The position numbers and the translations under genes are program-made. The notes under the pieces are model-generated. The model was not told where the DNA came from. It did no database searches and was given only the letters and a program-made list of their open reading frames with translations. A DNA stretch of 64,000 nucleotides from an uncultured delta proteobacterium. GTDB taxonomy: Bacteria > Desulfobacterota > Binatia > UBA9968. Position 1 is the first letter of the stretch. Each line of letters begins with the position of its first letter. Location: NCBI GenBank assembly GCA_963803415.1, contig CAWDMI010000005.1, forward strand, positions 408,835 through 472,834, written 5' to 3'. This document shows positions 12,957 through 59,284 of this stretch, piece after piece.

Positions 12957-12962
12957 GTTTTT

Positions 12963-13827: not shown

Positions 13828-14031
13828 GTGGATAGCGCGTCAATCCTTTGGGGAGTGATTTTTGGTGCGGTCGGTCTTGGCTACTTTGTCTACGGCAAGA
13901 GACAGCAAAGCGTGGTTCCTTTGGTCTGCGGATTGGGGCTGATGGTCTTTCCTTACTTTGTGTCGAATACGGTTCTTCTCGTTGTCGTGGGATTGGCACT
14001 GTCGGTAATTCCTTATTTTTTTAGGCTTTAA
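13828..14031 (+). CDS. Small two-TM membrane protein (hypothetical)
   Basis: 67-aa ORF with a GTG start and two hydrophobic helices (ILWGVIFGAVGLGYFVY...VVVGLALSVIPYFF). Confidence 0.35.
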   Translation: MDSASILWGVIFGAVGLGYFVYGKRQQSVVPLVCGLGLMVFPYFVSNTVLLVVVGLALSVIPYFFRL

Positions 14032-39980: not shown

Positions 39981-40535
39981 ATGGCAGAGAATGACAAAGA
40001 ACTTTGGCAGCAAGGCGAGAGCCTCCTTTTCAAAGCACGCCTGGAACGGCGCAAACAAGATATCGCGCGGCGCAAGGCAGGCCGGAAATCCATCAAGGCC
40101 GAAAACGTCAAATTGGAATGGGAGCCGCAAAACGGGATTTGGATCGGCGGCCTGGTTTCGCAGGAGCTAGGTTTTGACAACCGAGTGATTGAGGTCGACT
40201 GCCATATCTACCCTCCCCACACCCATTCGGTCACCCATAAGCACAATGAAGCGATCATTATTGTTTTGCGGGGCGAAGGATATAGCTTGCTCGACGACGA
40301 GCGCATCGACTGGAAGGCGGGCGATACTCTCTATATCGGCCAGGGGGTATGGCACCAACACTACGTGACGAGTGATGGGCCGGCGATGGTGGTGGCGATC
40401 AAGCCGCTGCCGATCCAGGAGTATCTGGGAGAACTTAATATTGTGTACAAGGGGGACAAGCCCGAGATAAACCGCGAGTACAAGCCGGAATCTTTTGCCA
40501 AAGAGTTCGGCAAAATCAATAAGGAAAAGCGATAA
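39981..40535 (+). CDS. Cupin domain protein
   Basis: 184-aa ORF with the motif HTHSVTHKHNEAIIIVLRGEG and a second one at GQGVWHQH. Confidence 0.7.
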   Translation: MAENDKELWQQGESLLFKARLERRKQDIARRKAGRKSIKAENVKLEWEPQNGIWIGGLVSQELGFDNRVIEVDCHIYPPHTHSVTHKHNEAIIIVLRGEGYSLLDDERIDWKAGDTLYIGQGVWHQHYVTSDGPAMVVAIKPLPIQEYLGELNIVYKGDKPEINREYKPESFAKEFGKINKEKR

Positions 40536-40563
40536 CGAGAGCGCCCGGCGGTCGATTCCGGGC

Positions 40564-41445
40564 CTACGCCTTTTTCGCTTCGACCACCAAAAATCGTCGC
40601 TCGAGCTCCTGCCAATCATCCAGGCCGACGATCTTGTCTCTCTCCTTGAAAGTCGTCAGGGTATTGTCAATGGCCTCCGTTGTCCCTTCTTTCTTGAGCA
40701 CATTGAGAGCGTGGCGCATAGCATGGATCGCGGCCCTTTGTGTTTCGGACGGGTAGATCGCGATCCGATAACCCATCTGCTGCAGGCGTTGGACCGGCAG
40801 CATCGGCGTTTTTCCACCTTTGAATACGTTGACCAGGAGCGGCACATTCGGCAGCGCGCGCGGGATCTCCTCCAGTTCCGCTTCGGACTGCGGGGCTTCA
40901 ACGAAGATCGCGTCGACGCCGAGTTTGGCAAAGCCCCGGCCCCTGTTCAGCGCATCTTCCAACCCGTAAACTCCGCGAGCATCAGTCCGGGCAATGACAC
41001 AAAAATCGGGATCGGTCCGGGCGGCCAGAGCCGCCTCGATCTTTTTCTCCATCTCGACAAGCCCAACGACTTCTTTCCCCTCCAGGTGACCGCAACGCTT
41101 GGGTGTGATCTGGTCTTCGATATGGATCGCCGCTACGCCGGCGCGCTCGAATTCGCGCACCGTCCGCACGAGATTAATGGCGTTGCCGTAACCGGTATCT
41201 GCGTCCGCAATCACCGGGATCTTCACCGCGGCCACAACTTGAGCAGCTCTCTCGATGACTTCGGACATGGTAACCAGCCCGATATCCGGCAAGCCCATAC
41301 TGCGCGCCACCGCGCCGCCACTCAGATACGCGGCTTCAAATCCCGCTTCCTCCACAAGGCGCGCCGACAGACCGTCGAAACATCCGGGTGCAACGAGAAG
41401 CTTGTCGCACTTAAGCAACTGCTTGAACACCTTTCTCTGATTCAT
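40564..41445 (-). CDS. prpB: 2-methylisocitrate lyase (isocitrate lyase/PEP mutase family)
   Basis: The ICL-family signature K-R-C-G-H (PKRCGHLEGK) is present. The gene is the last in the prpC-prpD-prpB co-oriented cluster. Confidence 0.85.
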   Translation of the reverse strand: MNQRKVFKQLLKCDKLLVAPGCFDGLSARLVEEAGFEAAYLSGGAVARSMGLPDIGLVTMSEVIERAAQVVAAVKIPVIADADTGYGNAINLVRTVREFERAGVAAIHIEDQITPKRCGHLEGKEVVGLVEMEKKIEAALAARTDPDFCVIARTDARGVYGLEDALNRGRGFAKLGVDAIFVEAPQSEAELEEIPRALPNVPLLVNVFKGGKTPMLPVQRLQQMGYRIAIYPSETQRAAIHAMRHALNVLKKEGTTEAIDNTLTTFKERDKIVGLDDWQELERRFLVVEAKKA

Positions 41446-41549
41446 ACTCTCTCCCAGCCGAGGCGGCTGACCGTTGGAATAACGGAGTTATTGGACTACT
41501 CGGTTCAATGCGTCACTCCACAACTCCAGTACTGCAGTTTTCAACGGCC

Positions 41550-43001
41550 TCACGAAGTCTCCACCGCGAACATGTCCATAAATTTGCCGATGGGAGTCGA
41601 TTGTAGCAGGTCCGGGTTAAGACACCGCTCCATGATCTCTTTGCAGCGCTCGGGCGGCAGCCGTGACGCCAAGTTGCCCTCAAACTTCTTGACCAACAAA
41701 GGTATGCCCTCAGCTCGTCGCCGCCGGTGACCCAGCGGATACTCCACGGCGACTTTTTTCGTGGCGGAGCCATCCGTAAAAAAAACCTGTACGGCGTTGG
41801 CAATGGAGCGCTTCTCCGGATCGAGATAGTCCTGCGAGTACCGCGCGTTCTCCACAACGACCATTTTATCACGCAACGCATCGATGCGCGGGTCGCGGGC
41901 AACCTCGTCTTGGTAATGATCGGCAGTGAGCTGCCCAAAAAGCAGCGCCACGGCGACCATGTACTGGAGGCAATGATCCCGGTCAGCGGGATTATAGAGC
42001 GGCCCGGATTTGTCAATAATGCGTTTCGCCGACTCCTGCGTGGTAATCACGATCTTTTCGACCTGCTCCACGCGATTTCTAACCTCCTCGTGCAGTTCAA
42101 TCCCGCATTCAACGGCGGTCTGAGCGTGAAACTCCGCCGGGAAGGAAATCTTAAACAGAACGTTTTCCATGACGTATGAAGCCAGCGGTCGCGGCAATGT
42201 AAAACCCTTCCCCCGGAACAGGACATCGTAAAAACCCCATTCCTCGGCGGACAGCGCCGAGGGGTAATCCGGCTCTCCTCGAAGGGCCATGAGCGCGAGG
42301 CGGACGCCGCGGCTGGTCGCGTCGCCCGCAGCCCATGATTTTCGAGGCCCGGTGTTAGGGGCATGGCGATAAACACGCAAGCTCGCGCCGTCGGTCCAGG
42401 CATTCGCAACCGCGCTCACGATCTGCTCTTTGCTCCCGCCCAGCATGGCTGTGCCCACGGCTGCCGTCGCCACGCGGACGAGCACAACGTGATCGAGACC
42501 CACCCGATTGAAGCTGTTCTCGAGCGCTAGCACTCCCTGGATTTCGTGCGCCTTGATCATCGCAACGAGGACAGCGCCGACCGTGAACGGCTCTCGCTTT
42601 CCGGATCTACCGCCACGGCTCATGAAGTCGGCAATGGCTAGAATGCCGCCGAGATTGTCCGACGGATGTCCCCACTCGGCCGCCAGCCACGTATCATTGA
42701 AGTCAAGCCACCGGATCATCGTGCCGATGTTGAAGGCGGCGTGAACCGGTTCGAGTTGCCAGCCGGTACCGGGAACGCGCGCGCCGTTCGCCAGCACAGC
42801 GCCTGCAACGATCGGGCCGAGGCATTTCACGCATTCTGGATAGCGCAAAGCGAGAAGACCGCAGCCCAGCGCATCCATCAGGTCATAGCGAGCGGTCTCC
42901 ATCGCCTCGTTGCTGGTCACAGCATAGCGCGCCGCATAATCGGCGATATCGACCATGATTTTATCCGGCGCCGGCCGAACGTTGGAAGGCGTTTCGCTCA
43001 T
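41550..43001 (-). CDS. prpD: 2-methylcitrate dehydratase
   Basis: 483-aa MmgE/PrpD family protein located between prpC and prpB. Confidence 0.85.
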
Positions 43002-43004: not shown

Positions 43005-44129
43005 CTACCGGTTTGCGATAGGAATGAACGATCGCGGCTCCGGGCCGAAGTAGTCGGCGTTGGGACGGATAAGACGGTTGTCGGCGCGCTGCTCGATGAT
43101 ATGCGCCGCCCAGCCGGTGATGCGCGCGACCACGAAGAGGGGTGTGAACATCGGCGTCGGAATGCCGCAGAAGTGGTAGGCGGTGGCGCCGTAGAAGTCG
43201 AGATTCGGAAATAGCTTTTTCTCCCGCCGCATCACTTGCTCGATGCGCTCGGAGACCGGGTACAACCTTTTGTCACCGTGAGCGTCTGCAAGCTTCTTTG
43301 CCCACGTTTTGATAACGTCGGAGCGCGGATCGGAAACTTTGTAGACGCGATGGCCGAAGCCCATGATGAGTTTCTTCGCAGCGATGAGATCGAGAACTCC
43401 CTTTTCCGCTTCGTCGGGGGTCGTGAACCGTCCGATTAGTTCCATCGCCGCCTCGTTCGCCCCGCCGTGCAGAGGGCCGCGCAGGGCGCCGATCGCGCCG
43501 GTCACGGCCGAGTAAAAATCCGGCAGGGTTGAAATGATCGCACGAGCGGTGAACGTCGAGGCATTAAATTCATGCTCAGCATAGAGAATGAGCGAGACAT
43601 CAACGGCCCGCCGCTGCAGCTCGTCGGCTTTTTTGCCGTGCAACAGGTGAAGAAAGTGCGCTGCCGTGCTGTCATCGTCGGTTTCCAGGTCGATGCGTCT
43701 ACCGCCAGTGACAAAATGGTGCCAGTGGAGCAATATCGAGCTGAAGCAAGCCGTTAAACGATTGGCAACCGCAATTTGATCGCGCCCCGTACCTTCCGGC
43801 TCCAGCGTCCCGAGCATCGAACAGCCCGTGCGCATGACATCCATGGGATGGGTCGATCGAGGTATCTGCTCGAGAATGGTCTTCAGCGGCGCAGGCAGGC
43901 CGCGCAGTCCGGTAAGAGTCTTTTTGTAATTGTTCAGCTCACTTTGACTCGGGAGGCAGCCGTAGATCAACAGGTAGGCTACTTCTTCAAAGGTCGAGTG
44001 CTCCGCGAGATCGTAAATGGAGTAACCGCGGTAACTAAGCCCTTTGCCTTCTTTGCCCACCGTAGCAATGGCTGTGCATCCCGCAATGACTCCGGCAAGC
44101 CCGACCGCCTTGTTCTTCGCCATCTCCAA
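43005..44129 (-). CDS. prpC: 2-methylcitrate synthase (citrate synthase family)
   Basis: 374-aa ORF with citrate-synthase catalytic regions (GFGHRVYK, LFPNLDFYGA). Its stop codon is 4 nt from the prpD start. Confidence 0.85.
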   Translation of the reverse strand: MEMAKNKAVGLAGVIAGCTAIATVGKEGKGLSYRGYSIYDLAEHSTFEEVAYLLIYGCLPSQSELNNYKKTLTGLRGLPAPLKTILEQIPRSTHPMDVMRTGCSMLGTLEPEGTGRDQIAVANRLTACFSSILLHWHHFVTGGRRIDLETDDDSTAAHFLHLLHGKKADELQRRAVDVSLILYAEHEFNASTFTARAIISTLPDFYSAVTGAIGALRGPLHGGANEAAMELIGRFTTPDEAEKGVLDLIAAKKLIMGFGHRVYKVSDPRSDVIKTWAKKLADAHGDKRLYPVSERIEQVMRREKKLFPNLDFYGATAYHFCGIPTPMFTPLFVVARITGWAAHIIEQRADNRLIRPNADYFGPEPRSFIPIANR

Positions 44130-46070: not shown

Positions 46071-48464
46071 ATGTCCACCGAATCTGGCGCCCTCAGCCAC
46101 ATCCGCGTCGTCGAATTGGGCGATATCCCTGCCTCCTACGCGACGCGCCTTCTGGCCGATTTGGGTGCCGATGTTATCAAAATCGAGCCGCCGGGCGGCG
46201 ATCCGAACCGCTGGCTACCTCCATTCGCCGGCGATATCGAAGACCCCGAGCGGAGTCTGACCTTCATCAATGCCAACACAAATAAGAGAAGCATCGTTCT
46301 CGATCCGCAGAATCAGGACAGCGACAGGGAGATCTTTGCTAAGTTGCTTGCCTTCGCCACGCTCTTCTTCGAAGCAACGCCGCTGGGCTATCTGGAAAAG
46401 TTCGGGTTCACCGACGACGGACTGAAGAAAACCAATCCTGCATTAGTGACCGTATCCTTGACGCCTTTTGGACGGACCGGCCTCTATCGCAACTACAAAG
46501 GCAGTGATGCGATTGCCAACGCGTCGGGCGGTTTTCTATTCGGCCAGGGCGACGACACAAAGGGTCAGTGCACGGCGCCTAGCCATCTCGCCTATCAGGT
46601 CGCCGCGTGCGTAGCAGCAACGTTGGCGCTCGCAGGCATGCGGCACGCCAGACTGACTGGAGCAGGGCAGCGCATCGACATCTCTCTTCAGGAAGCGCTC
46701 ACCCTTACCAACAGCAGTGCCGTGGCCCGCTACACCCGCGATAATCGGTTGGAGCGACGGCCGGGAACCAAAGACACCAGCGGCGCGGGTACCAACATCT
46801 ATCGCTGCAAAGACGGGCGCTACGTTCACTTCACGACCAACATGCCGCATATGTGGCGCGAATTCACGCAGAACTGGATGACCGGCTCCGCGCTCGCGGG
46901 CCATGAATGGGAAAATCCGAGACATCGTGCGGTCCACGCGGAAGAAGTGTCCAAGGAGTTTTCCGACTTTATTGCTCAGTTCGCTGCGGATGAGTTTGCC
47001 GAGGAAGCGCAGCGGCGGCATCTTGCCGCGGCTCCGCTCAATACCGTCGGCCAGTTCGTCGCTTGTGAACAGGTTCGTTCACGCCAATGGCTCCAAGAGA
47101 TCGAACATCCTGTGATTGGCCGCTACACCGCGCCGGGGTTTCCCATGAGGCTGTTCCTAACTCCGATGCGCATTCGCCGTCCGGCGCCCCTCTTGGGCCA
47201 GCATCAGAATGAGATCCTCGCGGAACTGGGATCCAATACTCCACACTCCACTACTCCAGGCGTTATCGACGATCGTGCCCGTAAACCCATGCTTGACGGT
47301 CTCCGCGTGGCTGATCTCACGCAACAGTATGCCGGCCCGCTCGGAACAGCTCTTCTGGCTTATTACGGAATGGAGGTTATCAAAATCGAGTCCAGCGTCG
47401 TTCCCAGCAAAGAACGCGAAACATCGGCTCATGCGGACATGAACCGCGCCAAGCTGGGCTGTACGATCAACCTGCGCCATCCTGACGGCAAAGAACTTTT
47501 TAAACAACTTGTCGCCGTTTCCGATGTCGTCGTGGACAATTTCAGCTCGGGTGTTTTGGAACGGCTCGGCTTCAGTTTTGCCGCGCTGCAGGGGATCAAT
47601 CCGCGTATCGTTCAAGCCGTGATGCCGGGTTGGGGGCTAACCGGACCACTCAAGTCGTGGGTCGCCTGGGGCTGGCAGCTTCTCGCGTATACCGGAATCA
47701 TGAGACTCTGGGGCTATCCCGACTCGCCGATGGAGAGCCGCTGCAAGATCGCCTGGCCCGACCGCGTGGGCGCCGCAACCATGACGCTCGGTGTCCTTGC
47801 CGCCCTCGAATACCAGCAACGCACCGGACAAGGACAATTCATCGAAGCCGCCATGCTCGAAGCTCAGGGCGCGATGATCGGACCAGCGATCCTGGATTAT
47901 ACCGTGAACGGCCGCAATTGGGATGCTATGGGTTACCGAGAAGTCTTGGGCAGACCTTATGCGCCTTACGGCTGTTATCCGTGCCGTGGCGCGGACACCT
48001 GGGTCATTATCGCCTGTGCTAGCGATGAAGAATGGCAAAGCATGGTCCGGCTGATCGGCAAATCGTCTTGGGCAGCTGATGAAAATTTCGCGACCAAGAA
48101 AGGTCGCCAGGAACATCAGGGTAACTTAGATCAGCGTCTGTCACAGTGGACACGAACATTGACGCCGCGACAGGTATTTCGGCGGTTGCAAGACGCCGGT
48201 ATCGCCGCCGGCATTCCGATGTCCGGAGAGGATCTTTATTACGACATCCACCTGCGCGAGCGCGGCCATATCGTCGAGACAGAAGCCGAACCCTGGGGCA
48301 AGATGAGCCATCACGGCCTGCCGGGCATTCCATCTTTGTCGGCAGCCAGCGCCGCGCGTCCCGCGCCCTGGATCGGCGCGCACAACGAATTTGTTTTCGG
48401 AAAAATACTGGGATTAAGCACGGAGAGGATTGAGGAGCTGAAAAAGGCTGGGGCTATAAAGTAG
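46071..48464 (+). CDS. Fused tandem family-III CoA-transferase (CaiB/BaiF-type), two domains
   Basis: 797-aa ORF containing two CoA-transferase-III units (N: IRVVELGDIPASYATRLLADLGADVIKIEPPGGDP; C: LRVADLTQQYAGPLGTALLAYYGMEVIKIES). It starts 10 nt after acuI. Confidence 0.8.
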   Translation: MSTESGALSHIRVVELGDIPASYATRLLADLGADVIKIEPPGGDPNRWLPPFAGDIEDPERSLTFINANTNKRSIVLDPQNQDSDREIFAKLLAFATLFFEATPLGYLEKFGFTDDGLKKTNPALVTVSLTPFGRTGLYRNYKGSDAIANASGGFLFGQGDDTKGQCTAPSHLAYQVAACVAATLALAGMRHARLTGAGQRIDISLQEALTLTNSSAVARYTRDNRLERRPGTKDTSGAGTNIYRCKDGRYVHFTTNMPHMWREFTQNWMTGSALAGHEWENPRHRAVHAEEVSKEFSDFIAQFAADEFAEEAQRRHLAAAPLNTVGQFVACEQVRSRQWLQEIEHPVIGRYTAPGFPMRLFLTPMRIRRPAPLLGQHQNEILAELGSNTPHSTTPGVIDDRARKPMLDGLRVADLTQQYAGPLGTALLAYYGMEVIKIESSVVPSKERETSAHADMNRAKLGCTINLRHPDGKELFKQLVAVSDVVVDNFSSGVLERLGFSFAALQGINPRIVQAVMPGWGLTGPLKSWVAWGWQLLAYTGIMRLWGYPDSPMESRCKIAWPDRVGAATMTLGVLAALEYQQRTGQGQFIEAAMLEAQGAMIGPAILDYTVNGRNWDAMGYREVLGRPYAPYGCYPCRGADTWVIIACASDEEWQSMVRLIGKSSWAADENFATKKGRQEHQGNLDQRLSQWTRTLTPRQVFRRLQDAGIAAGIPMSGEDLYYDIHLRERGHIVETEAEPWGKMSHHGLPGIPSLSAASAARPAPWIGAHNEFVFGKILGLSTERIEELKKAGAIK

Positions 48465-48606: not shown

Positions 48607-49197
48607 TCAGCTCCACCACGCGTCCTTAAGCTCGGGGGCTGCCTCCGGATTTTCGCGATCGAATGCCCATTGCGCCGGATTGTTGAGAATGTATTCGCGG
48701 ATGCGACTCAACGATTCTTCATCACGGATGATATGCTCGTAGTAGTTGCGCTGCCACAGTCGGCTGCGAAGCGGAACCCAACGCGACCTCTTTATCCCAC
48801 GCATATATTCGTTCGTCGTCATCGTCTTAAACCATTGTACGATGGCCGGTAGGGGCACACCTACGTGTGTGCCCTGAAGGGCGGCATGTGTGCCCTCCGG
48901 ATGAGGGCCGACACGCAGGCCGGCCCCTACGGCGATCACGACAACACCGTGAAAATGGTTTGGCATGACCACGAATTCGTCGGTCTCAATCGTCGGGAAT
49001 TTATGCTTCAATTCAAACCACCAACGTTCGACCATCTGTCCGGACTCGTTTAACCTTATTGTTCCATTAACGATCTCACCGAACAGACACGCCCGGTCTA
49101 GCGTCACTACGGCAACGAAATAGCCTCCCGATTGGCTGTAGTCATAGCCCTTTAGCCGAAGTGATCTTCGATGGTGTTTATGCCCTTCGTATTTCAT
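48607..49197 (-). CDS. REP-associated tyrosine transposase (RAYT; IS200/IS605-like Y1 transposase)
   Basis: Start at ATG 49197 (MKYEGHKHHRRSLRLKGYDYSQSGGYFVAVVT...). The HUH motif (VVMPNHFHGVV) and the catalytic Tyr region (NYYEHIIRDE) are present. The upstream extension in the ORF track (49644) is not supported. Confidence 0.85.
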   Translation of the reverse strand: MKYEGHKHHRRSLRLKGYDYSQSGGYFVAVVTLDRACLFGEIVNGTIRLNESGQMVERWWFELKHKFPTIETDEFVVMPNHFHGVVVIAVGAGLRVGPHPEGTHAALQGTHVGVPLPAIVQWFKTMTTNEYMRGIKRSRWVPLRSRLWQRNYYEHIIRDEESLSRIREYILNNPAQWAFDRENPEAAPELKDAWWS

Positions 49198-49219
49198 GAA
49201 CCCTACTTTGTGAAATGAT

Positions 49220-49245
49220 GGGCAGGCACGGGGGCCTGCCCCTAC
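49220..49245 (-). repeat. REP-like element: GTAG + 8-bp-stem hairpin (gtag gggcaggc ccccgt gcctgccc on minus strand) abutting the RAYT start and overlapping the ECH stop codon
   Basis: Plus strand reads gggcaggc acgggg gcctgccc ctac, directly from the sequence. It lies 22 nt upstream of the RAYT ATG. Confidence 0.5.
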
Positions 49246-50123
49246 ATCCTTCGTGCTTTCGGTCCAAACGGCTCGGGCCGAAAAGGCGCGTCGCGGGCTG
49301 CAAAAAATGCTTTTAGCCCGCCCTGCTTCCTTGCCTCTTCCATCTTTGTATTGAACTGTTCCTCCTTGGTTAAACGGGCCAATGCGGAAAGTTCTGAGTT
49401 CAATATCCACGCTTTGCGCAAGCCCATCATTTCTAGACCCATCCGCGAAATATGGAGATTGATTTTTACCGTCTCCGGCGGTACCAGGGCGACGCGCTCG
49501 ACAAAAGCAAAACTTTCCTCTAGTAGCTGGTCCCTGGGCACGACTTTGTTGACCAGGCCGATGCGCATAGCTTCTTGAGCATCGATGTGATCGCCGGTGA
49601 GCGAGTAACGCAGCGCATTTTTGAAGCCGGCGAGCATCACCCATATGAAATCGGTCCCGGAGGCATGACGGATTTGCGGTTGGCCGAATACGGCGTCATC
49701 TGCGGCGAAGGTCAGGTGACACGTAAGCGCCAACCACGAAGCGGCGCCGAGGCACCAGCCGCTTACGGCCGCGATAATCGGCTTGGGATATTCCCACCGG
49801 TAAAACTGGCGCTCAAGGAGACCTTTCCTATCGTTGTCACGGATGCGGTCGTATTCGTAAACCAGCGACGAATTCTCCGGAATTCCATATGGCCAGGCTG
49901 TAAGCTGATTATCGCCGCTTATATCTTCTCCCGTGGAAAACACCCCGCCCGCACCGGCTAGAACAACGGCACGGATCTCCGGATCTTTTTTCGCCGCTTC
50001 AAACGCGGAATCTAGCTCGTCCCACGATTCGTCGCTTAACGCGTTCAGAACGCTAGGACGGTTGAGCGTAATTTGCACTCCGCGGCGCTTCTTTTCGTAA
50101 AGAATGGTTTTATAACTCGCCAT
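49242..50123 (-). CDS. Enoyl-CoA hydratase/isomerase (crotonase) family, copy A
   Basis: Start at ATG 50123 (MASYKTILYEKKRRGVQITLNRP) with an SD aggaga. A crotonase fold is present. The ORF-track extension to 50297 is upstream read-through. Confidence 0.8.
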   Translation of the reverse strand: MASYKTILYEKKRRGVQITLNRPSVLNALSDESWDELDSAFEAAKKDPEIRAVVLAGAGGVFSTGEDISGDNQLTAWPYGIPENSSLVYEYDRIRDNDRKGLLERQFYRWEYPKPIIAAVSGWCLGAASWLALTCHLTFAADDAVFGQPQIRHASGTDFIWVMLAGFKNALRYSLTGDHIDAQEAMRIGLVNKVVPRDQLLEESFAFVERVALVPPETVKINLHISRMGLEMMGLRKAWILNSELSALARLTKEEQFNTKMEEARKQGGLKAFFAARDAPFRPEPFGPKARRM

Positions 50124-51144: not shown

Positions 51145-52167
51145 TCAGTTTGCATACAGCGATTTGATGAAGCCGCTTACCTCGATTTCGCGCACGATGT
51201 TCTCATCAACGAAAGATTTCGGGTCGGCGCCTTTGGCTTTCGGCTCGTCGACCGAGATAAACTCCAAAACCGTTTCGATAGCCTTGGGCAAAGCGTACGG
51301 AACCTCGTTGTAAAACTTGGTTGCCAAGAGATTATACGACGCTTCGAGATATTTGACGTCCTTCTCCTGAGCAGACTGGATACGCAGCTTTTTCTGCAGC
51401 ACCTCGAGGCTTTCCTTTTTGTGTTTTTTGAAATAGGCGATGCCTTCGCACAGAGCCTTAACGACGCGCACGGATTGATCGTGTTTCTGGCGCAGAAACG
51501 TTCTGGTCGAGTCTAGCGAATTCTGCAGGTAGTAGATATCCATGTCCACGGGGTCGGCGAGGACGCGGTAACCACGGTCCTCGGCGACGAAGAAAGTCGG
51601 AATCGTGAACACTGCGCCATCGATTCCTCCTTTCTCCAGACTCGCCAGCATCGCCGGCGAGGAACCGAGCTGGATGGTCTGAATGTTTTCCGACCGCATC
51701 CCCCATTTTTTGAGAAACAGCTGCAAGACCCAATGCGAGGCGGAACCGAAACGCGTAATGGCGACCTTCTTGCCTTTCAGCTCTTCCGGCGTCTTAATGT
51801 CGGCCCGCGTCATGAGTCTCTGCAGACCCGTTTTCATCGGTGATGCCACTAGCACGGTATCCGCTCCTTTGAGCGCCGAACGAATGACCGCGTCACCGCC
51901 GCCTACCGAAAACTGAATCTCGCCGGCGATCAGTGAGCTGACGACGCGCGACGCGCCGCCGCCGATGTAAATCACCTCGGCGTCAAGGCCATACTTTTTG
52001 AACAGCCCTTTTTCTTCGGCGACCCAAATCGCCCCGGAAGTCGCGCTGATGGAACTCAGACCGATCCTGACTCGATCCTGCGCCATGGATGAGAGGGGAA
52101 AAAGGAGAATCAACAATAAGCCCGCCAATAGGGATTCGACGACCTTTTTTCTCGATATCGAATTCAT
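51145..52167 (-). CDS. ABC transporter substrate-binding protein, NMT1/SsuA type
   Basis: A signal peptide is followed by an NMT1-like domain (VRIGLSSISATSGAIWVAEEKGLF). It is a paralog of the 23367-24353 gene. Confidence 0.75.
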   Translation of the reverse strand: MNSISRKKVVESLLAGLLLILLFPLSSMAQDRVRIGLSSISATSGAIWVAEEKGLFKKYGLDAEVIYIGGGASRVVSSLIAGEIQFSVGGGDAVIRSALKGADTVLVASPMKTGLQRLMTRADIKTPEELKGKKVAITRFGSASHWVLQLFLKKWGMRSENIQTIQLGSSPAMLASLEKGGIDGAVFTIPTFFVAEDRGYRVLADPVDMDIYYLQNSLDSTRTFLRQKHDQSVRVVKALCEGIAYFKKHKKESLEVLQKKLRIQSAQEKDVKYLEASYNLLATKFYNEVPYALPKAIETVLEFISVDEPKAKGADPKSFVDENIVREIEVSGFIKSLYAN

Positions 52168-53105: not shown

Positions 53106-54233
53106 TCACTTCTTTTCCGCCAGAGACTCCAGCCACGGCCTGAACTCGTTGATCTTGTTCTTGTGCTCCTCCAATCCCGTAAAGAGATAATCCCGCTTGG
53201 GGTCCAAGATGAAAACGGGGTCGATTCCTTCTTTGGAAATATCCACGCGCAAAGAATTTTCCTTGGTAAGTTTCTGAAAGGATATTTGCGCGTCGCGTGT
53301 GAGAACCCAGTTCAAGAAAACCTTCGCAGCGTTGGCGTGCGGCGCGGAGGCGAGAAAGGCTGCGGGATCGGTTCCGGCTCCGACCGCAGCCAGTCCTTCA
53401 AGATGGATCGGGATAACAGGTAACCCTTTGGCAACCAAACCCAGGCAGTCGACTCCGCCCAGCGCAACGGCAAACTTACCGCTGGCGATCCAATCGCTGA
53501 TCTGTGGCAGGCTGCGGGAAATCGTCACGTCCATCTCGCCATAGAGGCGCTTGAGATATCTGGGCCCCAGATCCTCGCGGACATAGATGCTGTACATCTG
53601 ATTGCGCGCGCTGCCGATCCTCAAATCCTGGCTGACGATCTTTCCTTTCCACTTGGGTTTGAGAAGATCCCAGTAGCTCTTCATCTCATTAGGTTTAACC
53701 AGGTTCGTATTGACGCAAGCAGCGACGTAAGGCACCGCCCTCCACATCAAGACATATTTGTCTTCGGTGTCCGCAAACCAGAGTTTGCCTCTGAACCATG
53801 CGGACTTATCCAGAACGTCTGGCAAAAGGAGCGCCGGCCGAATCGGCTGCAGCAGCCCCTTTTCTTTCAATGTCCCGAGAAGAATATCCGTGCCGCCAAG
53901 GACAAGGTCAACCTCGCGGATGCCGGCCCGTTGTTCGGCCATGATTCTGGAGATGATCTCGCTGATGCGTCCCGGCGTGTAATATACGCGAATCTTGGGA
54001 AATGCCTGCTGAAAGACATCGGTGTAGAGCGTCTGCTGGTCTCTTCCGGTCGGCCCATAAACAACGAGCCTCCCTTCCTTTTCTGCCGCTTTCAGCGTCG
54101 CTTCCCATTCCGTCTTCCAGTTGGGCTTGTCCTGAGCCGCTGAATGCCCTACGGCAAGCGAAGAAAGCCACAGCAGCAACAAACCGAGCGCGGAAAAAAT
54201 CCTGCGCGCACGCTGTCGTTTCTGCTGGTCCAC
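53106..54233 (-). CDS. ABC transporter substrate-binding protein, family 1 (Fe3+-type), paralog 5
   Basis: GTG start, a signal peptide, and the signature variant SAPHANAAKVFLNWVLTRDAQ. Confidence 0.75.
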   Translation of the reverse strand: MDQQKRQRARRIFSALGLLLLWLSSLAVGHSAAQDKPNWKTEWEATLKAAEKEGRLVVYGPTGRDQQTLYTDVFQQAFPKIRVYYTPGRISEIISRIMAEQRAGIREVDLVLGGTDILLGTLKEKGLLQPIRPALLLPDVLDKSAWFRGKLWFADTEDKYVLMWRAVPYVAACVNTNLVKPNEMKSYWDLLKPKWKGKIVSQDLRIGSARNQMYSIYVREDLGPRYLKRLYGEMDVTISRSLPQISDWIASGKFAVALGGVDCLGLVAKGLPVIPIHLEGLAAVGAGTDPAAFLASAPHANAAKVFLNWVLTRDAQISFQKLTKENSLRVDISKEGIDPVFILDPKRDYLFTGLEEHKNKINEFRPWLESLAEKK

Positions 54234-54236: not shown

Positions 54237-55427
54237 TCAAATCCTCACGACGCGAGGCACATGATCCGCCATCTCGCCTTTTTTGACGAGCCTCCCGGAA
54301 CCAATGACGTCAAAGTGGATCATTTCCTGTTCTTTGAGGTCACTAATAATTCCCGGCGGATCCTCGCCGCGCATCACGGCCTGGATCGCCGACATCCACA
54401 GCTTGCGCACCTGGATGACGCCGCGGTCCGAATGGGCGAGGTGTTCCTTGCTGCGATCGGCGACGGCTCCCTGACCGATCTGGGCCGCCGAGTCCTGGCC
54501 GTTGACCGTCGTCATGTCAAACTGCATTCGCGAACCTCGCATGAGCGGCGGTGCTTTCCGACTTTCTCTTGTCTTTCTCGCCGAAGGCTTTCCGTCCTTG
54601 AAAGGAAAAAATTTCACGATAAACGAGTAGCTGTTGTAGTCATCGACCGGCATTCGCCATGCGACGTCGGCAAAGAAAGCGTCGGCTTGGCCTGGAAGTG
54701 AACCGCCGTCATGGACCACGAGGATCGGCGGCGTATACGAGACTTCGCGATGCCACTCCTTATCCGCAGCCGGTCCCTGGCGCCGGCCAACGTAACTTGC
54801 CATCAGTTCATCGGCGATGACGTCGAACTCCGGGCTCTCCTGCCGCTCCGGATTCTGGCGCACGCCATGAACCTCCCGCCCATGGAGCACGGTCGCGTGC
54901 ACCGGGTCGAGGCAGTTGTCGAGCTGGTTCATGAAGTTGCACGCGCGCAGGTAACCCGCGAACGTTCGTTCGCCGTCTTCGCGCACGAGAAAATCATAGC
55001 GCGGCAGCGGCGGCGGCTCTCCCGAACCCATATAAGCCCAAACAATTCCCCCCAGCTCCCTTACCGGATAGGTCTTGAGCCTAATCTTGTCTTTGAACGT
55101 GCTCCCCGGGGGCTCCCCCGGTTGCTCAAGGCAGCGCCCGCCGACGTCAAAAACCCAACCGTGATAGCAGCAGCGCAACCCTCCGCCCTCAATCCAGCCG
55201 TACTCCAGAGATGTGCCCCTGTGCGGGCAGGTGGGTTCAACCAGTCCAACACGGCCATGTTCGTCACGGAACAGGATCAAATCTTCTCCCAACCAGCGCA
55301 CCAGTTTCGGGAAGTCTGACTTGGTCTCATGCGAGAATCCGACCGGAAGCCAGTACTTGCGCAAAGTCTCGCCCGCCGGCGTGCCCGGGCCCACTCGGGT
55401 CAACGTCTCATTTTCCGTCGCCTCCAT
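54237..55427 (-). CDS. Rieske [2Fe-2S] non-heme-iron aromatic-ring-hydroxylating oxygenase, alpha subunit (VanA/phthalate-dioxygenase-like)
   Basis: Rieske motif CPHRGTSL...CCYHGW is present, followed by a catalytic non-heme iron domain. No cognate reductase gene is adjacent. Confidence 0.8.
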   Translation of the reverse strand: MEATENETLTRVGPGTPAGETLRKYWLPVGFSHETKSDFPKLVRWLGEDLILFRDEHGRVGLVEPTCPHRGTSLEYGWIEGGGLRCCYHGWVFDVGGRCLEQPGEPPGSTFKDKIRLKTYPVRELGGIVWAYMGSGEPPPLPRYDFLVREDGERTFAGYLRACNFMNQLDNCLDPVHATVLHGREVHGVRQNPERQESPEFDVIADELMASYVGRRQGPAADKEWHREVSYTPPILVVHDGGSLPGQADAFFADVAWRMPVDDYNSYSFIVKFFPFKDGKPSARKTRESRKAPPLMRGSRMQFDMTTVNGQDSAAQIGQGAVADRSKEHLAHSDRGVIQVRKLWMSAIQAVMRGEDPPGIISDLKEQEMIHFDVIGSGRLVKKGEMADHVPRVVRI

Positions 55428-55485: not shown

Positions 55486-56358
55486 TTAGCTCTTGAGGTT
55501 CTTTTGAAAGAACTCCAGCGTCCTCGCCCATGCCTCCTTCGCCGCCTCCGGGTGGTAACGCTCGCTTTCGTCGCTGTGAAATCCATGCTCCGCGCCAGGA
55601 TAAATCTTGTAGGTGTAGGACTTCTCGTATCGTTTCATAGCTTCCACGGTGTCGGGAATGCCTTTATTGACTCCCGGATCCAGCTCACCGTAGTGTGCTA
55701 GAATCGGCGCCTGAATGTTCTTCACCAGCTCAAGAGGATTGGGACTGCGGCCATAGAAAACAACGGCGGCTCTGAGCCCGCGCACTTGCGTTGCGGACGC
55801 AAAGCACATCTCACCGCCCCAGCAAAAGCCCACCAAGCCCATGCGGTCGTCGCGGACGTCCGCCAGAGTCCGCAGATACGCGTAACCCGAGTCGGTATCC
55901 TCGGCAACCACCTGCGAGGGAACGACGGCGCGGATGTTCTCAAAGCCCCGCCCTTGCGGATTAGCCTTCGTGCTCCCGCCGGCGCGCGACAGATAGTCCG
56001 GGACAAGCGCGACATAACCCTGCTTGGCGAGGCGGCGCGCCACATCGCGAAAATGATCGCTGAGGCCCTGGTTTGCATGGATCACGATAATCCCGGGGTA
56101 TTTACCTGCCGGCGCCGGACGAACCAGGTAACCAAAAACCGTTCCGGCTTTCCCGTTGAATTGGACGTTATGCCAGACGATGCCGGAATCGTTCGGATCG
56201 ACCTGGACCGCGTCGGAGTTGGACTGCATGAGAGTCTCGATCAGCGTATTGGCCGCAGCCAGGCTGCCCGTGATCGCTGCCGCTTTACGCATGAAATCGC
56301 GGCGCGTGACTTGACCCTTCTCATACTGTCGCGTTAGTTCTTTAATCTTTTCGGCCAT
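55486..56358 (-). CDS. Dienelactone hydrolase family protein with Tat signal
   Basis: Start at ATG 56358 (MAEKIKELTRQYEKGQVTRRDFMRKAAAITGSLAA). The twin-arginine motif RRDFMRK and a DLH fold (GFCWGG) are present. Confidence 0.75.
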   Translation of the reverse strand: MAEKIKELTRQYEKGQVTRRDFMRKAAAITGSLAAANTLIETLMQSNSDAVQVDPNDSGIVWHNVQFNGKAGTVFGYLVRPAPAGKYPGIIVIHANQGLSDHFRDVARRLAKQGYVALVPDYLSRAGGSTKANPQGRGFENIRAVVPSQVVAEDTDSGYAYLRTLADVRDDRMGLVGFCWGGEMCFASATQVRGLRAAVVFYGRSPNPLELVKNIQAPILAHYGELDPGVNKGIPDTVEAMKRYEKSYTYKIYPGAEHGFHSDESERYHPEAAKEAWARTLEFFQKNLKS

Positions 56359-56404
56359 GACTCTGTTTTTTTTTCGGAAATGAAAGATCCTCCCTTCACA
56401 ACCA

Positions 56405-57541
56405 TCACCGTATGAGTTGGGTAACTGCCAGCGTATTGCGTCCCGTCCACATCGGCAACAACACGGAGTGACGGTGCTTGCCGCCGCAGACAACCACCAT
56501 GATATCTTGGGGCCGCGTCGATAGATGAACGATCCGATCTGGCGTCACGTTGGGGGATTCCCGCAACAATTCGTCGTCGTTCTTGGTTCCTTTGTGGCGA
56601 TCGGGAATGCTCGAGAACGGGATTGTGGCGTGATCCCAGAGGTAGCGCTTGACTTCTGTCTTGGTGATCCCGTCGCGCGCCATGATCTCTGCATCCTCAA
56701 TTCCCAACGCGACCAGAGGCGTTCCGCCGCCGAAGCTGCCTACGTCCAAGTGACTGCCGCCGCGGTGCATCGCAATAACCTCCGCCAGCGAAGATAGGGC
56801 ATGCTCGCCTCGATTACCTGAAGTATGCATGGGGATGAAGCCATTGATGCCGCACACGGTTACCGTACTCTCGTCCGGCCTATAACCGCGCTCCACGTGA
56901 TGCGGCTCCCAGGGGCTTTTCTCCTCGTTTTCGCCAAAGCAAAAAGTGTATTTTCCCGGCCAGCCGAAGGTTGAGTGATCCGTTTCTCCCGGGAACCCGC
57001 CGCCGATCGTGATGAGGATCAAGCGCACCGCCCTGCCGATCGTCGCATTGGCGCGAAATCCCGGACCAAACACGCCGGCATCGCAGTTGATCGCGAGTTT
57101 CTTTCTGATCGGCCCGTTAATGAGCAGCGCAGGCCCCACATACCCCGTCGTCGCCTGCACACCATAGAGATTAAAGCGCGGTTCGATCATGGCCTGCACG
57201 GCCGCGATGACCACGGGAAGATATTCCGGCAGACAACCCGCCATTACGGCATTAATCGTGATTTTTTCCACCGTGGCCGGAGCCCATCGGGGAGGAATAA
57301 GTCCAATGATTTCCTGGGAATCCCGCTCCACGCCGTCGAGCATGTGCTCAACCCGCTCGCGCGTGGGGGGCACGATGGGCAATCCGTCGCTTAGCTTTTC
57401 GCGTAGGAACCAATCGTTCGCGGCTTCGAGGCTGTCCTCAACCTCGATCAGGTTTGAAGTCAACTTCTTCATGGTTTGCAGTCCACGACCCAGCTCCCTT
57501 GCGCCCGCAATTTCTATGCTCGTCTCGCTTCTCGAACCCAC
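56405..57541 (-). CDS. Conserved hypothetical protein, 37 nt downstream of the UGSC selenoprotein gene (start ambiguous: GTG 57541 or ATG 57472)
   Basis: The ORF is about 355-378 aa with no recognisable family. It has Gly-rich segments (ATTGYVGPALLINGP, GGSHLDVGSFGGGTP, VVVCGGKHRHS). It is likely co-transcribed with the UGSC gene. Confidence 0.6.
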   Translation of the reverse strand: MGSRSETSIEIAGARELGRGLQTMKKLTSNLIEVEDSLEAANDWFLREKLSDGLPIVPPTRERVEHMLDGVERDSQEIIGLIPPRWAPATVEKITINAVMAGCLPEYLPVVIAAVQAMIEPRFNLYGVQATTGYVGPALLINGPIRKKLAINCDAGVFGPGFRANATIGRAVRLILITIGGGFPGETDHSTFGWPGKYTFCFGENEEKSPWEPHHVERGYRPDESTVTVCGINGFIPMHTSGNRGEHALSSLAEVIAMHRGGSHLDVGSFGGGTPLVALGIEDAEIMARDGITKTEVKRYLWDHATIPFSSIPDRHKGTKNDDELLRESPNVTPDRIVHLSTRPQDIMVVVCGGKHRHSVLLPMWTGRNTLAVTQLIR

Positions 57542-57578
57542 GCACGAATTCGCGTGCGCTCTCAGAGCCTGTTGAGAA

Positions 57579-58145
57579 TCAGCGGTTTGAAGTCTGCCCC
57601 GCCACGGGCACCACAGCTAGGGTTAGCGCCGCGTTGACCGGGTCAACGGCGATCTCAGCATCTGCCCGGTGCTCGCCGGGTCGCGCGCCGCCGCTCGGAT
57701 GATGCGGGATCTCGATAAGCGGCAATTGCGGCATGCCGAAAAACTTCGCCTCCGTTCTCCCCAACTCCATAAAGATTGACTGGCACAGAGTCACCGTCGG
57801 TTTCCCTCGCTGCTGGATTTCAATGGCGTCGTGGACACTCCACGACGTGCAGGAGCCTCAGGCCCCAAGGCCGGTGATCACGGCGTCGCACCGGCTCACC
57901 AGTTCGTCGACCATCGCCCCGGGCGCTCCCTGCATGTGGGTCGGTTTGTTGCGCACGATGACGTTTGCAAGGCCGCATCGCTCGTGAAGCAGCGCCGCCA
58001 GCTCATGAAACATCGGCGTGGAATTGGCTTGACCGTTGTCAAGAATCCCGATAACCCGCCCTTCCAGAGTCTCCAGCCCGGGCACCAACGGATGGTCGCC
58101 GAGTTTAACAGAAACTCTCGGGTCCAGCATGAAGAGTTTGCCCAT
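57579..58145 (-). CDS. UGSC-family selenoprotein; in-frame TGA (selenocysteine) at 57858-57860
   Basis: ORF-track pieces 57858-58145 and 57579-57794 are in the same frame and separated only by TGA. The read-through gives ...DAVITGLGA-U-GSCTSWSVHDAIEIQQRGKPTVTLCQSIFMELG..., which contains the family-defining U-G-S-C motif. No other stop codon occurs between 57857 and 57795. An SD aaaggag lies upstream of ATG 58145. A SECIS-like hairpin follows the TGA. The total length is 188 aa. Confidence 0.8.
57827..57847 (-). ncRNA. Bacterial SECIS-like hairpin (9-bp stem CGUCGUGGA / UCCACGACG, GUG loop) starting 10 nt 3' of the UGA
   Basis: Read directly from the sequence. The minus-strand mRNA is UGA ggcuccugca CGUCGUGGA GUG UCCACGACG. 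This spacing and a G/U-containing apical loop are typical of bSECIS elements. Confidence 0.6.
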
Positions 58146-58210
58146 CTCCGGTACTCCTTTAGTTATTCCCTTAGATTCGATTAGAACGGATCGCCCAGGT
58201 TAGGATTGCC

Positions 58211-59284
58211 TTATTTACCGTCCTTTAAGAAAATGCCGTTAAAGAGCTTGATCAACTCCATCTGCCGTTCATCCCAGTCCGGGGAAGGGATCTGCATTTT
58301 TTTTCCTCGCAGGTCTGCCAGGTATCGCACGTCTTTTCTACTCACCCAACGTCCCTGCTGCGCCATAATCTCTTGCCCCTGTTGCGAAAGAAAAAAATCG
58401 ACAAACAACGCTGCCGCGTGAGGATGAGGAGCGCCCGCGGCGAGCGAGACAGTGGTCGGGGTTTTGACCGGAACAAAAAGCTCCGGAAATAGAAAATCGA
58501 CGGGCGCTTTAGCGTTCTTCAAGTCTTGCGACTCTTCGGGAAAGGCGTCGATCATGATGGGAAATTCTCCAGCTACCACAAGCTGTGACAACAACGACGT
58601 TCCGCGCCGCATCTGCAGGTCGAGCTTTGCCAGTGTCCTTGCGAATTCCACCCCCCGCTGCATACCATAGTAATCGATGAGTGACGCAAGCCAGTCATAA
58701 TCCGTTGACTCAAATCCCAATTTGCCTTGCCACCGAGGATCAACGAGATCGTCAATGGATTTAGGCGCCCGCGCCACCGGAACCATGCTCGTATTAATGA
58801 GAAAGACCCTCGGCTGTGCGTAAATGCTATTGACATATCCCTCCTTATCCGCAAACCCCTCGCCCAGGTAATCGCGCAGCGGTGTTCGATATCTCATCAC
58901 CGCGTTTTCCTTCACCATAACACCCACAAAGGAACGGCGCGTATTGATCACGTCGGCGCGATATTTCTTGTTTCGATGTTCGACGAGCAAAAGGTCCATC
59001 AGCCGGCTCGCACCCCCAGGCTGGAACTTCACCTTCAAGAAAGGATACTTCGCCTCAAAGGGCCGGATGAGCTCGGCGGCTCTCTCAACGTTCATCGCTC
59101 CATACCAAACCACTTGCGCTTCTTTGCGTGCCGCTTGTTCCAAAGCTTCCGCGCGCTCCCGGCTAGGCAAACGATTGATTGCCTCCAAACTCTCTTCGCC
59201 GGACTGTGCGTGGAGCGTGGCGCCAAAGAAACTGCCCAGCCACAGCAACCCAACGGCCATCCCGATTGCCGTCTTTCGCAGCAT
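58211..59284 (-). CDS. ABC transporter substrate-binding protein, family 1 (Fe3+-type), paralog 6
   Basis: A signal peptide is present with the signature GAPHPHAAALFVDFFLSQQGQE. It is the closest paralog of the 35879-36979 gene. Confidence 0.8.
   Translation of the reverse strand: MLRKTAIGMAVGLLWLGSFFGATLHAQSGEESLEAINRLPSRERAEALEQAARKEAQVVWYGAMNVERAAELIRPFEAKYPFLKVKFQPGGASRLMDLLLVEHRNKKYRADVINTRRSFVGVMVKENAVMRYRTPLRDYLGEGFADKEGYVNSIYAQPRVFLINTSMVPVARAPKSIDDLVDPRWQGKLGFESTDYDWLASLIDYYGMQRGVEFARTLAKLDLQMRRGTSLLSQLVVAGEFPIMIDAFPEESQDLKNAKAPVDFLFPELFVPVKTPTTVSLAAGAPHPHAAALFVDFFLSQQGQEIMAQQGRWVSRKDVRYLADLRGKKMQIPSPDWDERQMELIKLFNGIFLKDGK

What the first reader, a model, noticed from the sequence alone, without database searches (positions are those of the whole stretch)
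57579..58145. Selenoprotein gene (UGSC family) with in-frame TGA and downstream SECIS hairpin, split by standard ORF calling
Two adjacent minus-strand ORFs (95 aa and 71 aa) share one reading frame and are separated only by a TGA. Reading through the TGA yields ...VITGLGA-U-GSC-TSWS..., the diagnostic motif of the UGSC-containing selenoprotein family. A perfect 9-bp-stem hairpin begins 10 nt after the UGA, which fits a bacterial SECIS. Standard gene callers would truncate or miss this gene. It also shows that the organism uses selenocysteine, although no sel genes or tRNA-Sec are in this window. The gene is 37 nt upstream of an unclassified conserved protein, and sits in a run of co-oriented genes with a Tat-exported dienelactone hydrolase and a Rieske oxygenase. 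This hints at a redox role in that locus.
Basis: partly seen in the sequence, partly recalled or inferred. Interest (0 to 1): 0.75.

Follow-up and report, generated by a model that had tools for sequence, protein, structure and literature searches.

The report
UGSC-family selenocysteine gene, confirmed
This is a genuine selenocysteine-encoding gene of the already known UGSC family, which ordinary gene callers split at its in-frame TGA; the new point is that it belongs to a conserved, often fused pair with a large uncharacterised protein family.

Summary
On the minus strand, 58145..57579 is one 188-codon frame interrupted only by TGA at 57860..57858 (...VITGLGA-U-GSCTSWSVHD...). A perfect 9-bp hairpin with a GUG loop lies at 57847..57827. 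The product matches Pfam PF24696 (UGSC) end to end. All 89 related genes I recovered carry TGA at this codon, and distant homologues carry Cys there. Codons +5 and +7 to +9 after the TGA show no synonymous variation in 79 distinct sequences, while all 88 other degenerate codons examined vary. One fusion homologue keeps the hairpin through a U-A to C-G double change. The hairpin meets all four published bacterial SECIS criteria. TGA ends 19 of 31 genes here, so the codon is not reassigned. The family has been known since about 2007, so this is a new member of a known kind. Three additions: the predicted fold is flavodoxin/Rossmann-like, not thioredoxin-like. The downstream 355-aa gene follows UGSC in at least 58 of 69 loci and is fused to it in both orders; its family has about 7,500 clusters, no Pfam model and no PDB fold match. 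The dienelactone hydrolase/Rieske context is lineage-specific. Sec machinery could not be checked.

The parts
57579..58145 (-). UGSC-family selenoprotein CDS: 188 aa including Sec96, ATG 58145, stop TGA 57581..57579
   Evidence: frame; PF24696, 144.6 bits, residues 6-175 to profile 2-171/172; NF041046, 107 bits, E 7.6e-31; homologues
57858..57860 (-). In-frame UGA read as selenocysteine (U of the U-G-S-C motif)
   Evidence: TGA at the homologous codon in 89/89 genes from 85 loci. Cys (TGC) in the distant homologue P0027/L005 and in other Cys-type members. JGI proteins P0001-4 show W here, which I read as TGA translated under another code
57827..57847 (-). SECIS hairpin: 9-bp stem CGUCGUGGA/UCCACGACG with apical loop GUG; 19 nt between the UGA and the loop
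   Evidence: -13.5 kcal/mol. (TCG 79/79, AGT 79/79, GTC 69/69, CAC 79/79). (compensatory U-A to C-G in L088). (bSECIS criteria). (91.5% of cells paired)
58154..58160 (-). Shine-Dalgarno-like AAAGGAG, 8 nt upstream of the ATG
   Evidence: Read directly from the sequence
56405..57472 (-). Partner gene, 355 aa; start is ATG 57472, not the GTG 57541 of the longest ORF. It is an uncharacterised family that is adjacent to or fused with UGSC
   Evidence: No Pfam, NCBIfam or PDB match. The same 355-aa product was called on an independent contig
57473..57578 (-). 106-nt spacer between UGSC and partner, containing a small palindrome (GCGCACGCGAATTCGTGCGTG). The spacer is only about 10-30 nt in L001, and 38 related loci carry a DUF559 gene downstream of UGSC
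   Evidence: (sequence)

Best explanation
Window 58145..57579 (minus strand) is one gene for a 188-residue UGSC-family selenoprotein.

Decoding. The UGA at 57860..57858 is decoded as selenocysteine. The hairpin that starts 10 nt downstream (57847..57827; G-U at the start of its apical loop) would act as the bacterial SECIS that recruits SelB carrying Sec-tRNA(Sec) to the ribosome. This step is inferred. The RNA element lies inside the coding sequence and fixes the codons for S-W-S-V-H.

Protein. It is predicted to be a five-stranded (beta-alpha)5 flavodoxin/Rossmann-like domain. Sec96 and Cys99 (U-x-x-C) sit at the N-terminal cap of helix 3. They most likely cycle between a selenol/thiol form and a selenenylsulfide form (inferred).

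Partner. The protein works with the product of the next gene, a 355-aa protein with invariant Cys80 in the AINAVMAGC motif. Together they form one enzyme, which is a single fused polypeptide in many organisms. Electrons probably come from a thioredoxin-reductase-type flavoprotein (inferred from one fusion and a few neighbours).

The substrate is unknown.
For: Gene and Sec:
- Single frame with one TGA.
- Full-length PF24696 hit; NF041046 at E 7.6e-31.
- About 20 database relatives truncated exactly at ...GLGA, and 4 with W at the position.
- 89/89 TGA with conserved translation on both sides.
- Cys at the same column in Cys-type members from Sphingomonadales and haloarchaea, which NCBI names 'UGSC family (seleno)protein'.
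- TGA terminates 19/31 Pfam-supported genes in the window.

SECIS:
- Loop 3 nt GUG, stem 9 bp, 19 nt from the UGA, -13.5 kcal/mol. The published limits are 3-9 nt, 4-16 bp, 16-37 nt, at most -7.5 kcal/mol, and G[G|U] in the loop.
- Zero synonymous entropy at codons +5 and +7 to +9 only.
- The Cys homologue L005 uses ACT TCC TGG TGC and cannot form the hairpin.
- L088 keeps the helix through U-A to C-G, which costs W to R and H to R in the protein.

Distant link to the Sec region of GrdB/GrdF/PrdB in 13/28 members, best E 1e-4.

Partner:
- Follows UGSC in 58/69 loci with room, and also in paralogous pairs and in the Cys form.
- Single-ORF fusions with in-frame TGA.
- By length class, 58 of the top 150 partner-family representatives look fused to UGSC, in both orders. 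About a dozen of these were verified by Pfam or by sequence.
- One partner-thioredoxin-reductase fusion with a CAVC motif.
Against: - No tRNA-Sec, selA, selB or selD in the window or in any fetched locus. The rest of the genome could not be searched.
- No Rfam family matches the hairpin.
- Formal covariation is weak because the stem hardly varies: 2 pairs with double changes, reached by 9/500 shuffles.
- The hairpin overlaps strongly conserved amino acids, so part of its conservation is protein-driven.
- The NCBIfam equivalog cutoff is not reached (107 against 125 bits).
- The redox mechanism, complex formation and electron donor are inferred from motifs, fusions and models. Nothing here measures them.
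- Some loci (for example L053) have UGSC without a partner nearby.
Confidence: 0.9

Rival explanations
1. The TGA is a true stop. The locus would then be a pseudogene, an assembly error, or two separate small genes: a 95-aa N-terminal protein and a 71-aa protein starting at GTG 57794.
For: Standard ORF calling gives exactly these two ORFs. Public databases hold many roughly 105-130-aa products ending at ...GLGA.
Against: - TGA is at the identical codon in 89/89 relatives from many samples.
- The 21 codons between the TGA and the GTG (GSCTSWSVHDAIE...) are the best conserved part of the protein.
- Cys-type homologues are continuous proteins.
- The Pfam model spans both halves.
- An error or a decaying pseudogene would not show this pattern.
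Confidence: 0.03
2. UGA is read through or recoded as a standard amino acid rather than Sec. This could be Trp, Gly or Cys, through a reassigned genetic code or near-cognate suppression.
For: Four JGI predictions translate the codon as W. Sec machinery was not found in the sequence available.
Against: - TGA ends 19 of 31 domain-supported genes in this window, including the UGSC gene itself, so there is no global reassignment.
- The aligned residue in non-TGA homologues is Cys, the usual Sec counterpart.
- A hairpin with SECIS geometry and a G-U loop is under selection right after the codon.
- The family is a recognised selenoprotein family.
Confidence: 0.05
3. The gene is a real selenoprotein but works alone as a thioredoxin-like redox protein, as the older literature assumed. 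On this view its adjacency to the 355-aa gene is incidental.
For: Zhang and Gladyshev 2008 describe it as 'likely Trx-like fold'. About 16% of loci with room show no partner directly downstream, and L053 has none within 3 kb.
Against: - Several 'partner-less' loci simply run out of sequence after an inserted DUF559 gene.
- Fusions in both orders, and 58/150 partner representatives judged fused to UGSC by length class, argue for one functional unit.
Confidence: 0.15

Closest known systems
UGSC-containing selenoprotein family (Pfam PF24696; NCBIfam NF041046 'UGSC family (seleno)protein'; Zhang and Gladyshev 2007/2008)
   Same: Full-length domain match. U-G-S-C motif with Sec aligned to Cys of the Cys-type members. 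In-frame UGA followed by a hairpin. The family is dominated by Sec forms (255 Sec against 21 Cys in GOS). Function unknown in the literature.
   Different: This soil/Binatia-type branch (GLGA-UGSC-TSWS) scores below the NCBIfam equivalog cutoff (107 against 125 bits) and is only about 35% identical to the Cys-type members. The predicted fold is flavodoxin/Rossmann-like rather than the 'likely Trx-like' fold stated in 2008.
Selenoprotein B of the Stickland reductases (GrdB/GrdF/PrdB; TIGR01917, TIGR01918, TIGR04483)
   Same: Weak but recurrent similarity centred on the Sec region: UGSC 82-148 against GrdB profile 333-393, in 13/28 members, best E 1e-4. From my own knowledge, both are U-x-x-C proteins that work with a second, substrate-binding subunit and thiol-based electron donors.
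   Different: Scores are far below the family cutoffs. UGSC is 190-210 aa against about 430 aa for GrdB. The partner has no detectable similarity to GrdE or PrdA, and no pyruvoyl-forming site was identified. The hosts here are soil and aerobic lineages, not amino-acid-fermenting Clostridia.
Bacterial SECIS consensus (bSECISearch model; E. coli fdhF/fdnG type)
   Same: Stem-loop inside the ORF just after the UGA. The 3-nt loop begins G-U, the upper stem is 9 bp, the distance from the UGA to the loop is 19 nt, and the energy is below -7.5 kcal/mol. All four criteria are met.
   Different: No bulged U as in fdhF (my knowledge). No Rfam model hits it. The loop is a minimal triloop.
'Unknown_1' domain fused to UGSC in GOS reads (Zhang and Gladyshev 2008, Fig. 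S1A)
   Same: A conserved domain of unknown function fused to UGSC and present in few cultured organisms. This matches the partner-UGSC fusions seen here.
   Different: Identity could not be verified. The figure panel is an image, and the motifs were not found in the stored supplementary text.

Membership tests
UGSC family (Pfam PF24696) | Domain match above the gathering score over the whole domain | tested here: met
   144.6 bits against a cutoff of 25; residues 6-175 to profile 2-171/172
UGSC family (NCBIfam NF041046 equivalog) | Score at or above the curated cutoff of 125 bits | tested here: not met
   107.1 bits, E 7.6e-31, profile 2-147/147. This is homologous but a divergent branch, and it would not be auto-named by this model
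UGSC family | U/C-G-S-C motif with Sec or Cys at the first position | tested here: met
   GLGA-U-GSCTSW in the window. CGSCTSW in Cys-type members, aligned in the same column
Bacterial selenoprotein gene | In-frame UGA conserved among orthologues, aligned with Cys in homologues, with coding conservation downstream | tested here: met
   89/89 TGA; Cys pairs
Bacterial selenoprotein gene | [quoted passage not shown] | tested here: met
   GUG loop, 9 bp, 19 nt, -13.5 kcal/mol. Synonymous-site invariance. One compensatory pair. The covariation statistics themselves are weak
Bacterial selenoprotein gene | Host encodes selA, selB, selC (tRNA-Sec) and selD | not testable with these tools
   None in the 64-kb window or in the fetched loci.
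Bacterial selenoprotein gene | Selenium detected in the protein, or a peptide spanning U | not testable with these tools
   Needs an experiment
GrdB/PrdB selenoprotein B family | Match above the family cutoffs (TIGR01917 602 bits; TIGR01918 65 bits) | tested here: not met
   13.6 and 11.8 bits for the window protein. 13/28 relatives give weak hits, best E 1e-4. This is at most a distant relationship
Thioredoxin-fold UxxC selenoproteins | Thioredoxin fold (beta-alpha-beta-alpha-beta-beta-alpha) | tested here: not met

The most novel reading that the evidence does not exclude
UGSC and the 355-aa partner are the two halves of a widespread, so far undescribed selenoenzyme, encoded either as two subunits or as one fused chain. 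The redox half is a flavodoxin-like Sec/Cys domain distantly related to the Sec region of GrdB/PrdB. The catalytic half is a large family (about 7,500 clusters at 50% identity) with no Pfam model and no PDB fold match. The enzyme would be fed by a thioredoxin-reductase-type donor and would act on a small molecule taken up through NMT1/THI5-like binding proteins. In effect it would be a non-clostridial, aerobic-soil counterpart of the Stickland-type reductases.
Probability: 0.4. Interest if true: 0.65.

Novelty: new member of a known kind. Interest (0 to 1): 0.4.

Why it matters
For annotation, the gene is a true selenoprotein that ordinary callers truncate, and the NCBIfam equivalog cutoff would miss this branch. 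That matters for the selenoproteomes of Binatia-like soil bacteria.

For biology, UGSC is one of the most abundant environmental selenoprotein families, and its function has been unknown since it was first reported in 2007. Three results here turn 'unknown redox protein' into a testable two-component enzyme hypothesis:
- It is tied by adjacency and by fusions in both orders to one specific orphan family.
- Its predicted fold is not thioredoxin-like.
- A partner-thioredoxin-reductase fusion exists.

The locus also gives a clean example of an RNA element (SECIS) dictating codon choice, and even amino-acid choice, inside a coding sequence.

Tried and rejected
- Rfam (region at E up to 10, and whole window at gathering score): no SECIS or other RNA family.
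- Single-sequence fold statistics: z = -0.7, uninformative.
- Search for a second UGSC or partner copy in the window by tblastn: none.
- Heuristic scan for other TGA-interrupted genes in the window: only spurious GC-rich ORFs besides UGSC.
- tRNA scan of the window and 56 loci: no tRNA at all, so no tRNA-Sec.
- Pfam scan of 20 further window ORFs: no SelA, SelB or SelD.
- Profile searches of PDB sequences with UGSC and with the partner: nothing meaningful.
- The afdb50 library was unavailable.
- Checking that 'Unknown_1' of the 2008 paper equals the partner failed, because the figure is an image.
- The idea that the dienelactone hydrolase and Rieske genes are functionally coupled to UGSC was rejected as a family feature. 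They co-occur only in the window, L001 and L002.

Full report
**1. What is in the sequence.**
Read on the minus strand, the stretch from ATG 58145 to TGA 57581..57579 is one frame of 188 sense codons. It has a single internal TGA at 57860..57858:

MGKLFMLDPR...RCDAVITGLGA-*-GSCTSWSVHDAIEIQQRGKPTVTLCQ...GQTSNR*

The mechanical ORF list shows a 95-aa ORF (57858..58145) and a 71-aa ORF (57579..57794) in that frame. The second is listed from an internal GTG, but the frame is open right after the TGA. An AAAGGAG sits 8 nt before the ATG. Ten nucleotides after the UGA, CGUCGUGGA-GUG-UCCACGACG (57847..57827) forms a perfect 9-bp hairpin of -13.5 kcal/mol. On its own the fold is not unusual for this 56% GC sequence (z = -0.7 for 66 nt). 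The case rests on comparison.

**2. Family.**
With Cys substituted for the stop, the product matches Pfam PF24696 'UGSC family' over its whole length (144.6 bits, cutoff 25). It also matches NCBIfam NF041046 'UGSC family (seleno)protein' at E 7.6e-31, but its 107 bits are below the equivalog cutoff of 125. The literature lists the 'UGSC-containing protein' as a selenoprotein family of unknown function. It is noted in Hyphomonas neptunium and in metagenomes, and is among the most abundant families in the GOS data (255 Sec forms against 21 Cys forms). It was thought 'likely' to be thioredoxin-like (PMC1976440, PMC2398784, PMC9312934, PMC13188914).

**3. Is the TGA decoded?**
- A search of 5.8 billion proteins found about 20 relatives that stop exactly at ...GLGA. 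It also found four JGI predictions with W at that position, which I read as TGA translated under another code, and one 36%-identical protein with Cys (AYGD-C-GSCTSWC).
- I fetched DNA for 4 genomic loci (Binatia, 'Acidiferrales' and 'Deltaproteobacteria' MAGs) and 80 metagenomic loci. All 89 occurrences of the motif have TGA at the homologous codon, with conserved translation on both sides.
- A second search seeded with the Cys form recovered more than 100 full-length Cys-type members. They include Sphingobium, Novosphingobium and haloarchaea, some already named 'UGSC family (seleno)protein' by NCBI. Their Cys aligns with the TGA.
- In the window, TGA terminates 19 of 31 domain-supported genes, including this one. 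The codon is therefore not reassigned.
- A sequencing error, a pseudogene or two separate genes cannot explain these facts.

**4. The hairpin as SECIS.**
The published bacterial SECIS model (quoted in PMC13188914) sets four criteria. The table compares them with the hairpin here.

| Criterion | Model | Observed |
|---|---|---|
| Upper stem | 4-16 bp | 9 bp |
| UGA to loop | 16-37 nt | 19 nt |
| MFE | at most -7.5 kcal/mol | -13.5 kcal/mol |

The stronger evidence is evolutionary. I examined codons -36 to +60 in 79 distinct sequences.
- Every degenerate codon outside the hairpin shows synonymous variation (0.2-2.4 bits).
- Codons +5 and +7 to +9 show none: Ser TCG 79/79, Ser AGT 79/79, Val GTC 69/69 (Ile ATC in the rest) and His CAC 79/79. 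Asp GAC is 75/79.
- That is 4 of 4 invariant codons inside against 0 of 88 outside. My Fisher estimate is about 4e-7.
- AGT is otherwise a rare Ser codon here (AGC 54 against AGT 2 at +55). It supplies the closing A and the loop G-U.

Two further observations support the structure.
- The Cys-type homologue L005 uses ACT TCC TGG TGC GTC and cannot form the helix.
- The fusion gene in L088 has TCG CGG AGT CTC CGC GAC. One U-A pair becomes C-G, which costs W to R and H to R in the protein, and the hairpin is kept.

A formal pair count on 30 sequences gives 91.5% of cells paired. Only two pairs have double changes, reached by 9 of 500 shuffles. Classical covariation is therefore thin, because the stem barely varies. 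No Rfam model matches.

**5. What could not be shown.**
There is no tRNA gene in the window. None of 20 further window ORFs scanned with Pfam matched a SelA, SelB or SelD family. There is no tRNA in 56 related loci. The exact partner protein occurs on a contig of 0.2-1 Mb and on an independent 1.9-kb assembly. That second contig starts just after the TGA, so it gives no independent read of the codon.

**6. Protein fold and relatives.**
It has pLDDT 85.5 and is a (beta-alpha)5 parallel sheet: E31-36, H40-57, E61-66, H76-85, E88-92, H97-112, E117-122, H123-135, E143-146, H158-174. Position 96 lies between strand 3 and helix 3, at the helix N-cap.

Thirteen of 28 family members give weak hits to glycine reductase selenoprotein B (best E 1e-4). 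Six hit TIGR01918, three hit GrdF and one hits PrdB. For the window protein, residues 82-148 align to GrdB profile positions 333-393, a stretch that contains U96. This is a lead to a distant relationship, not membership.

**7. The neighbour is the real partner.**
The next gene is listed as a 378-aa ORF from GTG 57541. Homologues and an independent gene call start at ATG 57472, which gives 355 aa and a 106-nt spacer rather than 37 nt.

The family is uncharacterised.
- It has no Pfam, NCBIfam or PDB-sequence match.
- It is large: at least 7,992 clusters at 90% identity, and 7,565 representatives at 50% identity with E<=1e-3, of which 2,455 have E<=1e-30.
- Invariant motifs include DGLPxxPPT, AxNAVMAGC (Cys80), NLYxxQATT, RANATIGRA, PGKY..C..ENE..SPW and GGxGxHS.

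The link to UGSC is strong.
- The partner follows UGSC in 58 of 69 loci with room. It also follows the paralogous second pairs in L003 and L004 and the Cys-type gene in L005.
- Several apparent exceptions are loci that end after an inserted DUF559 gene.
- L086 (569 aa) and L088 (549 aa) are single ORFs of UGSC plus partner with the in-frame TGA. L089 is similar.
- The length classes of the top 150 partner-family representatives are shown below.

| Class among the top 150 | Count |
|---|---|
| Stand-alone | 85 |
| N-terminal extension the size of the post-TGA UGSC fragment | 35 |
| Complete UGSC-like N-terminal domain (for example DCGSC, DCGNC; some degenerate) | 18 |
| Partner followed by the pre-TGA half of UGSC (reverse order) | 5 |
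| Long (tandem partner domains; one partner + thioredoxin-reductase-like flavoprotein with a CAVC motif) | 7 |

These fusions probably correspond to the 'UGSC/Unknown_1' fusion noted in 2008. I could not verify this because the figure is held only as an image.

**8. Context.**
- Dienelactone hydrolase with a Tat signal (55486..56493) and the Rieske protein (54237..55427) are confirmed.
- They accompany UGSC only in the window and its two closest relatives, L001 and L002.
- Across 104 flanking ORFs, the recurrent neighbours are NMT1/THI5-like binding proteins (34) and Amidohydro_2 (11). Tct transporters and pyridine-nucleotide-disulfide oxidoreductases appear occasionally.
- The window itself carries an NMT1-like gene at 51145..52167, further downstream.

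**9. Most likely mechanism.**
- Shown: one gene; a conserved UGA; a selected hairpin with SECIS geometry; membership of the UGSC Pfam family; a conserved, frequently fused partner.
- Inferred: SelB-dependent insertion of Sec96; a U96/C99 selenenylsulfide redox cycle at the helix N-cap; a complex with the partner, whose invariant Cys80 is a candidate catalytic residue; reduction by a thioredoxin-reductase-type system.
- The substrate is unknown. Transporter-type neighbours suggest an imported small molecule.
- I put 0.9 on 'genuine UGSC selenoprotein gene with SECIS', and about 0.4 on the fuller two-part reductase model.

**10. Verdict.**
The kind is already known, with Pfam and NCBIfam models and reviews. 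This is a new member of a known family, from a branch that automatic naming would miss. Its value lies in correct annotation and in the testable partner hypothesis, not in a new principle.

Noticed in passing
L004 6725-7177 and 37 other related loci; absent from window 57473-57578: A DUF559/Vsr-like endonuclease ORF of about 140-150 aa lies downstream of UGSC in 38 of about 85 related loci, and in L004 it sits between UGSC and the partner on the same strand. The copies are 42-67% identical to the L004 copy. The window, L001 and L002 lack it. The window instead has a 106-nt spacer with a small palindrome.
   Followed up: partly
Proteins P0345, P0277, P0290 (partner-family representatives): The partner domain also occurs fused to a thioredoxin-reductase-like flavoprotein with a CAVC motif (P0345, Pyr_redox_2), and as tandem duplications of about 710-740 aa.
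   Followed up: partly
L003 5984-7669; L004 4377-6049; L034, L035, L043, L071: Several genomes carry two paralogous UGSC (GLGD-U-GSC type) plus partner pairs side by side. The two pairs are about 40-44% identical to each other, and both have TGA.
   Followed up: partly
window 10900-14000: About 3.1 kb without any ORF of 150 aa or more and without an Rfam match. GC content is close to the window average.
   Followed up: partly
window 14597-15820, 22198-23253, 23367-24353, 31554-32690, 35879-36979, 51145-52167, 53106-54233, 58211-59284: Unusually many periplasmic solute-binding protein genes (at least 8, of the SBP_bac and NMT1 types) are scattered through the window. Most have no adjacent permease or ATPase among the ORFs I annotated.
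   Followed up: no
window 1748-3187, 41550-43001, 43005-44129, 46071-48464: Two MmgE/PrpD paralogues, a citrate-synthase-family gene and a double-length family III CoA-transferase (797 aa). This suggests methylcitrate- or itaconate-type organic acid metabolism.
   Followed up: no
window 27711-28844 (+), 33306-34415 (+), 40495-41730 (+): Three ORFs of 369-411 aa without any Pfam match at E<=1e-4. The last one overlaps a 293-aa ORF on the other strand.
   Followed up: no
window 48607-49644 (-): A 345-aa ORF with a sub-threshold match to the IS200-like Y1 transposase domain at its C-terminal end (21.8 bits, cutoff 23).
   Followed up: no
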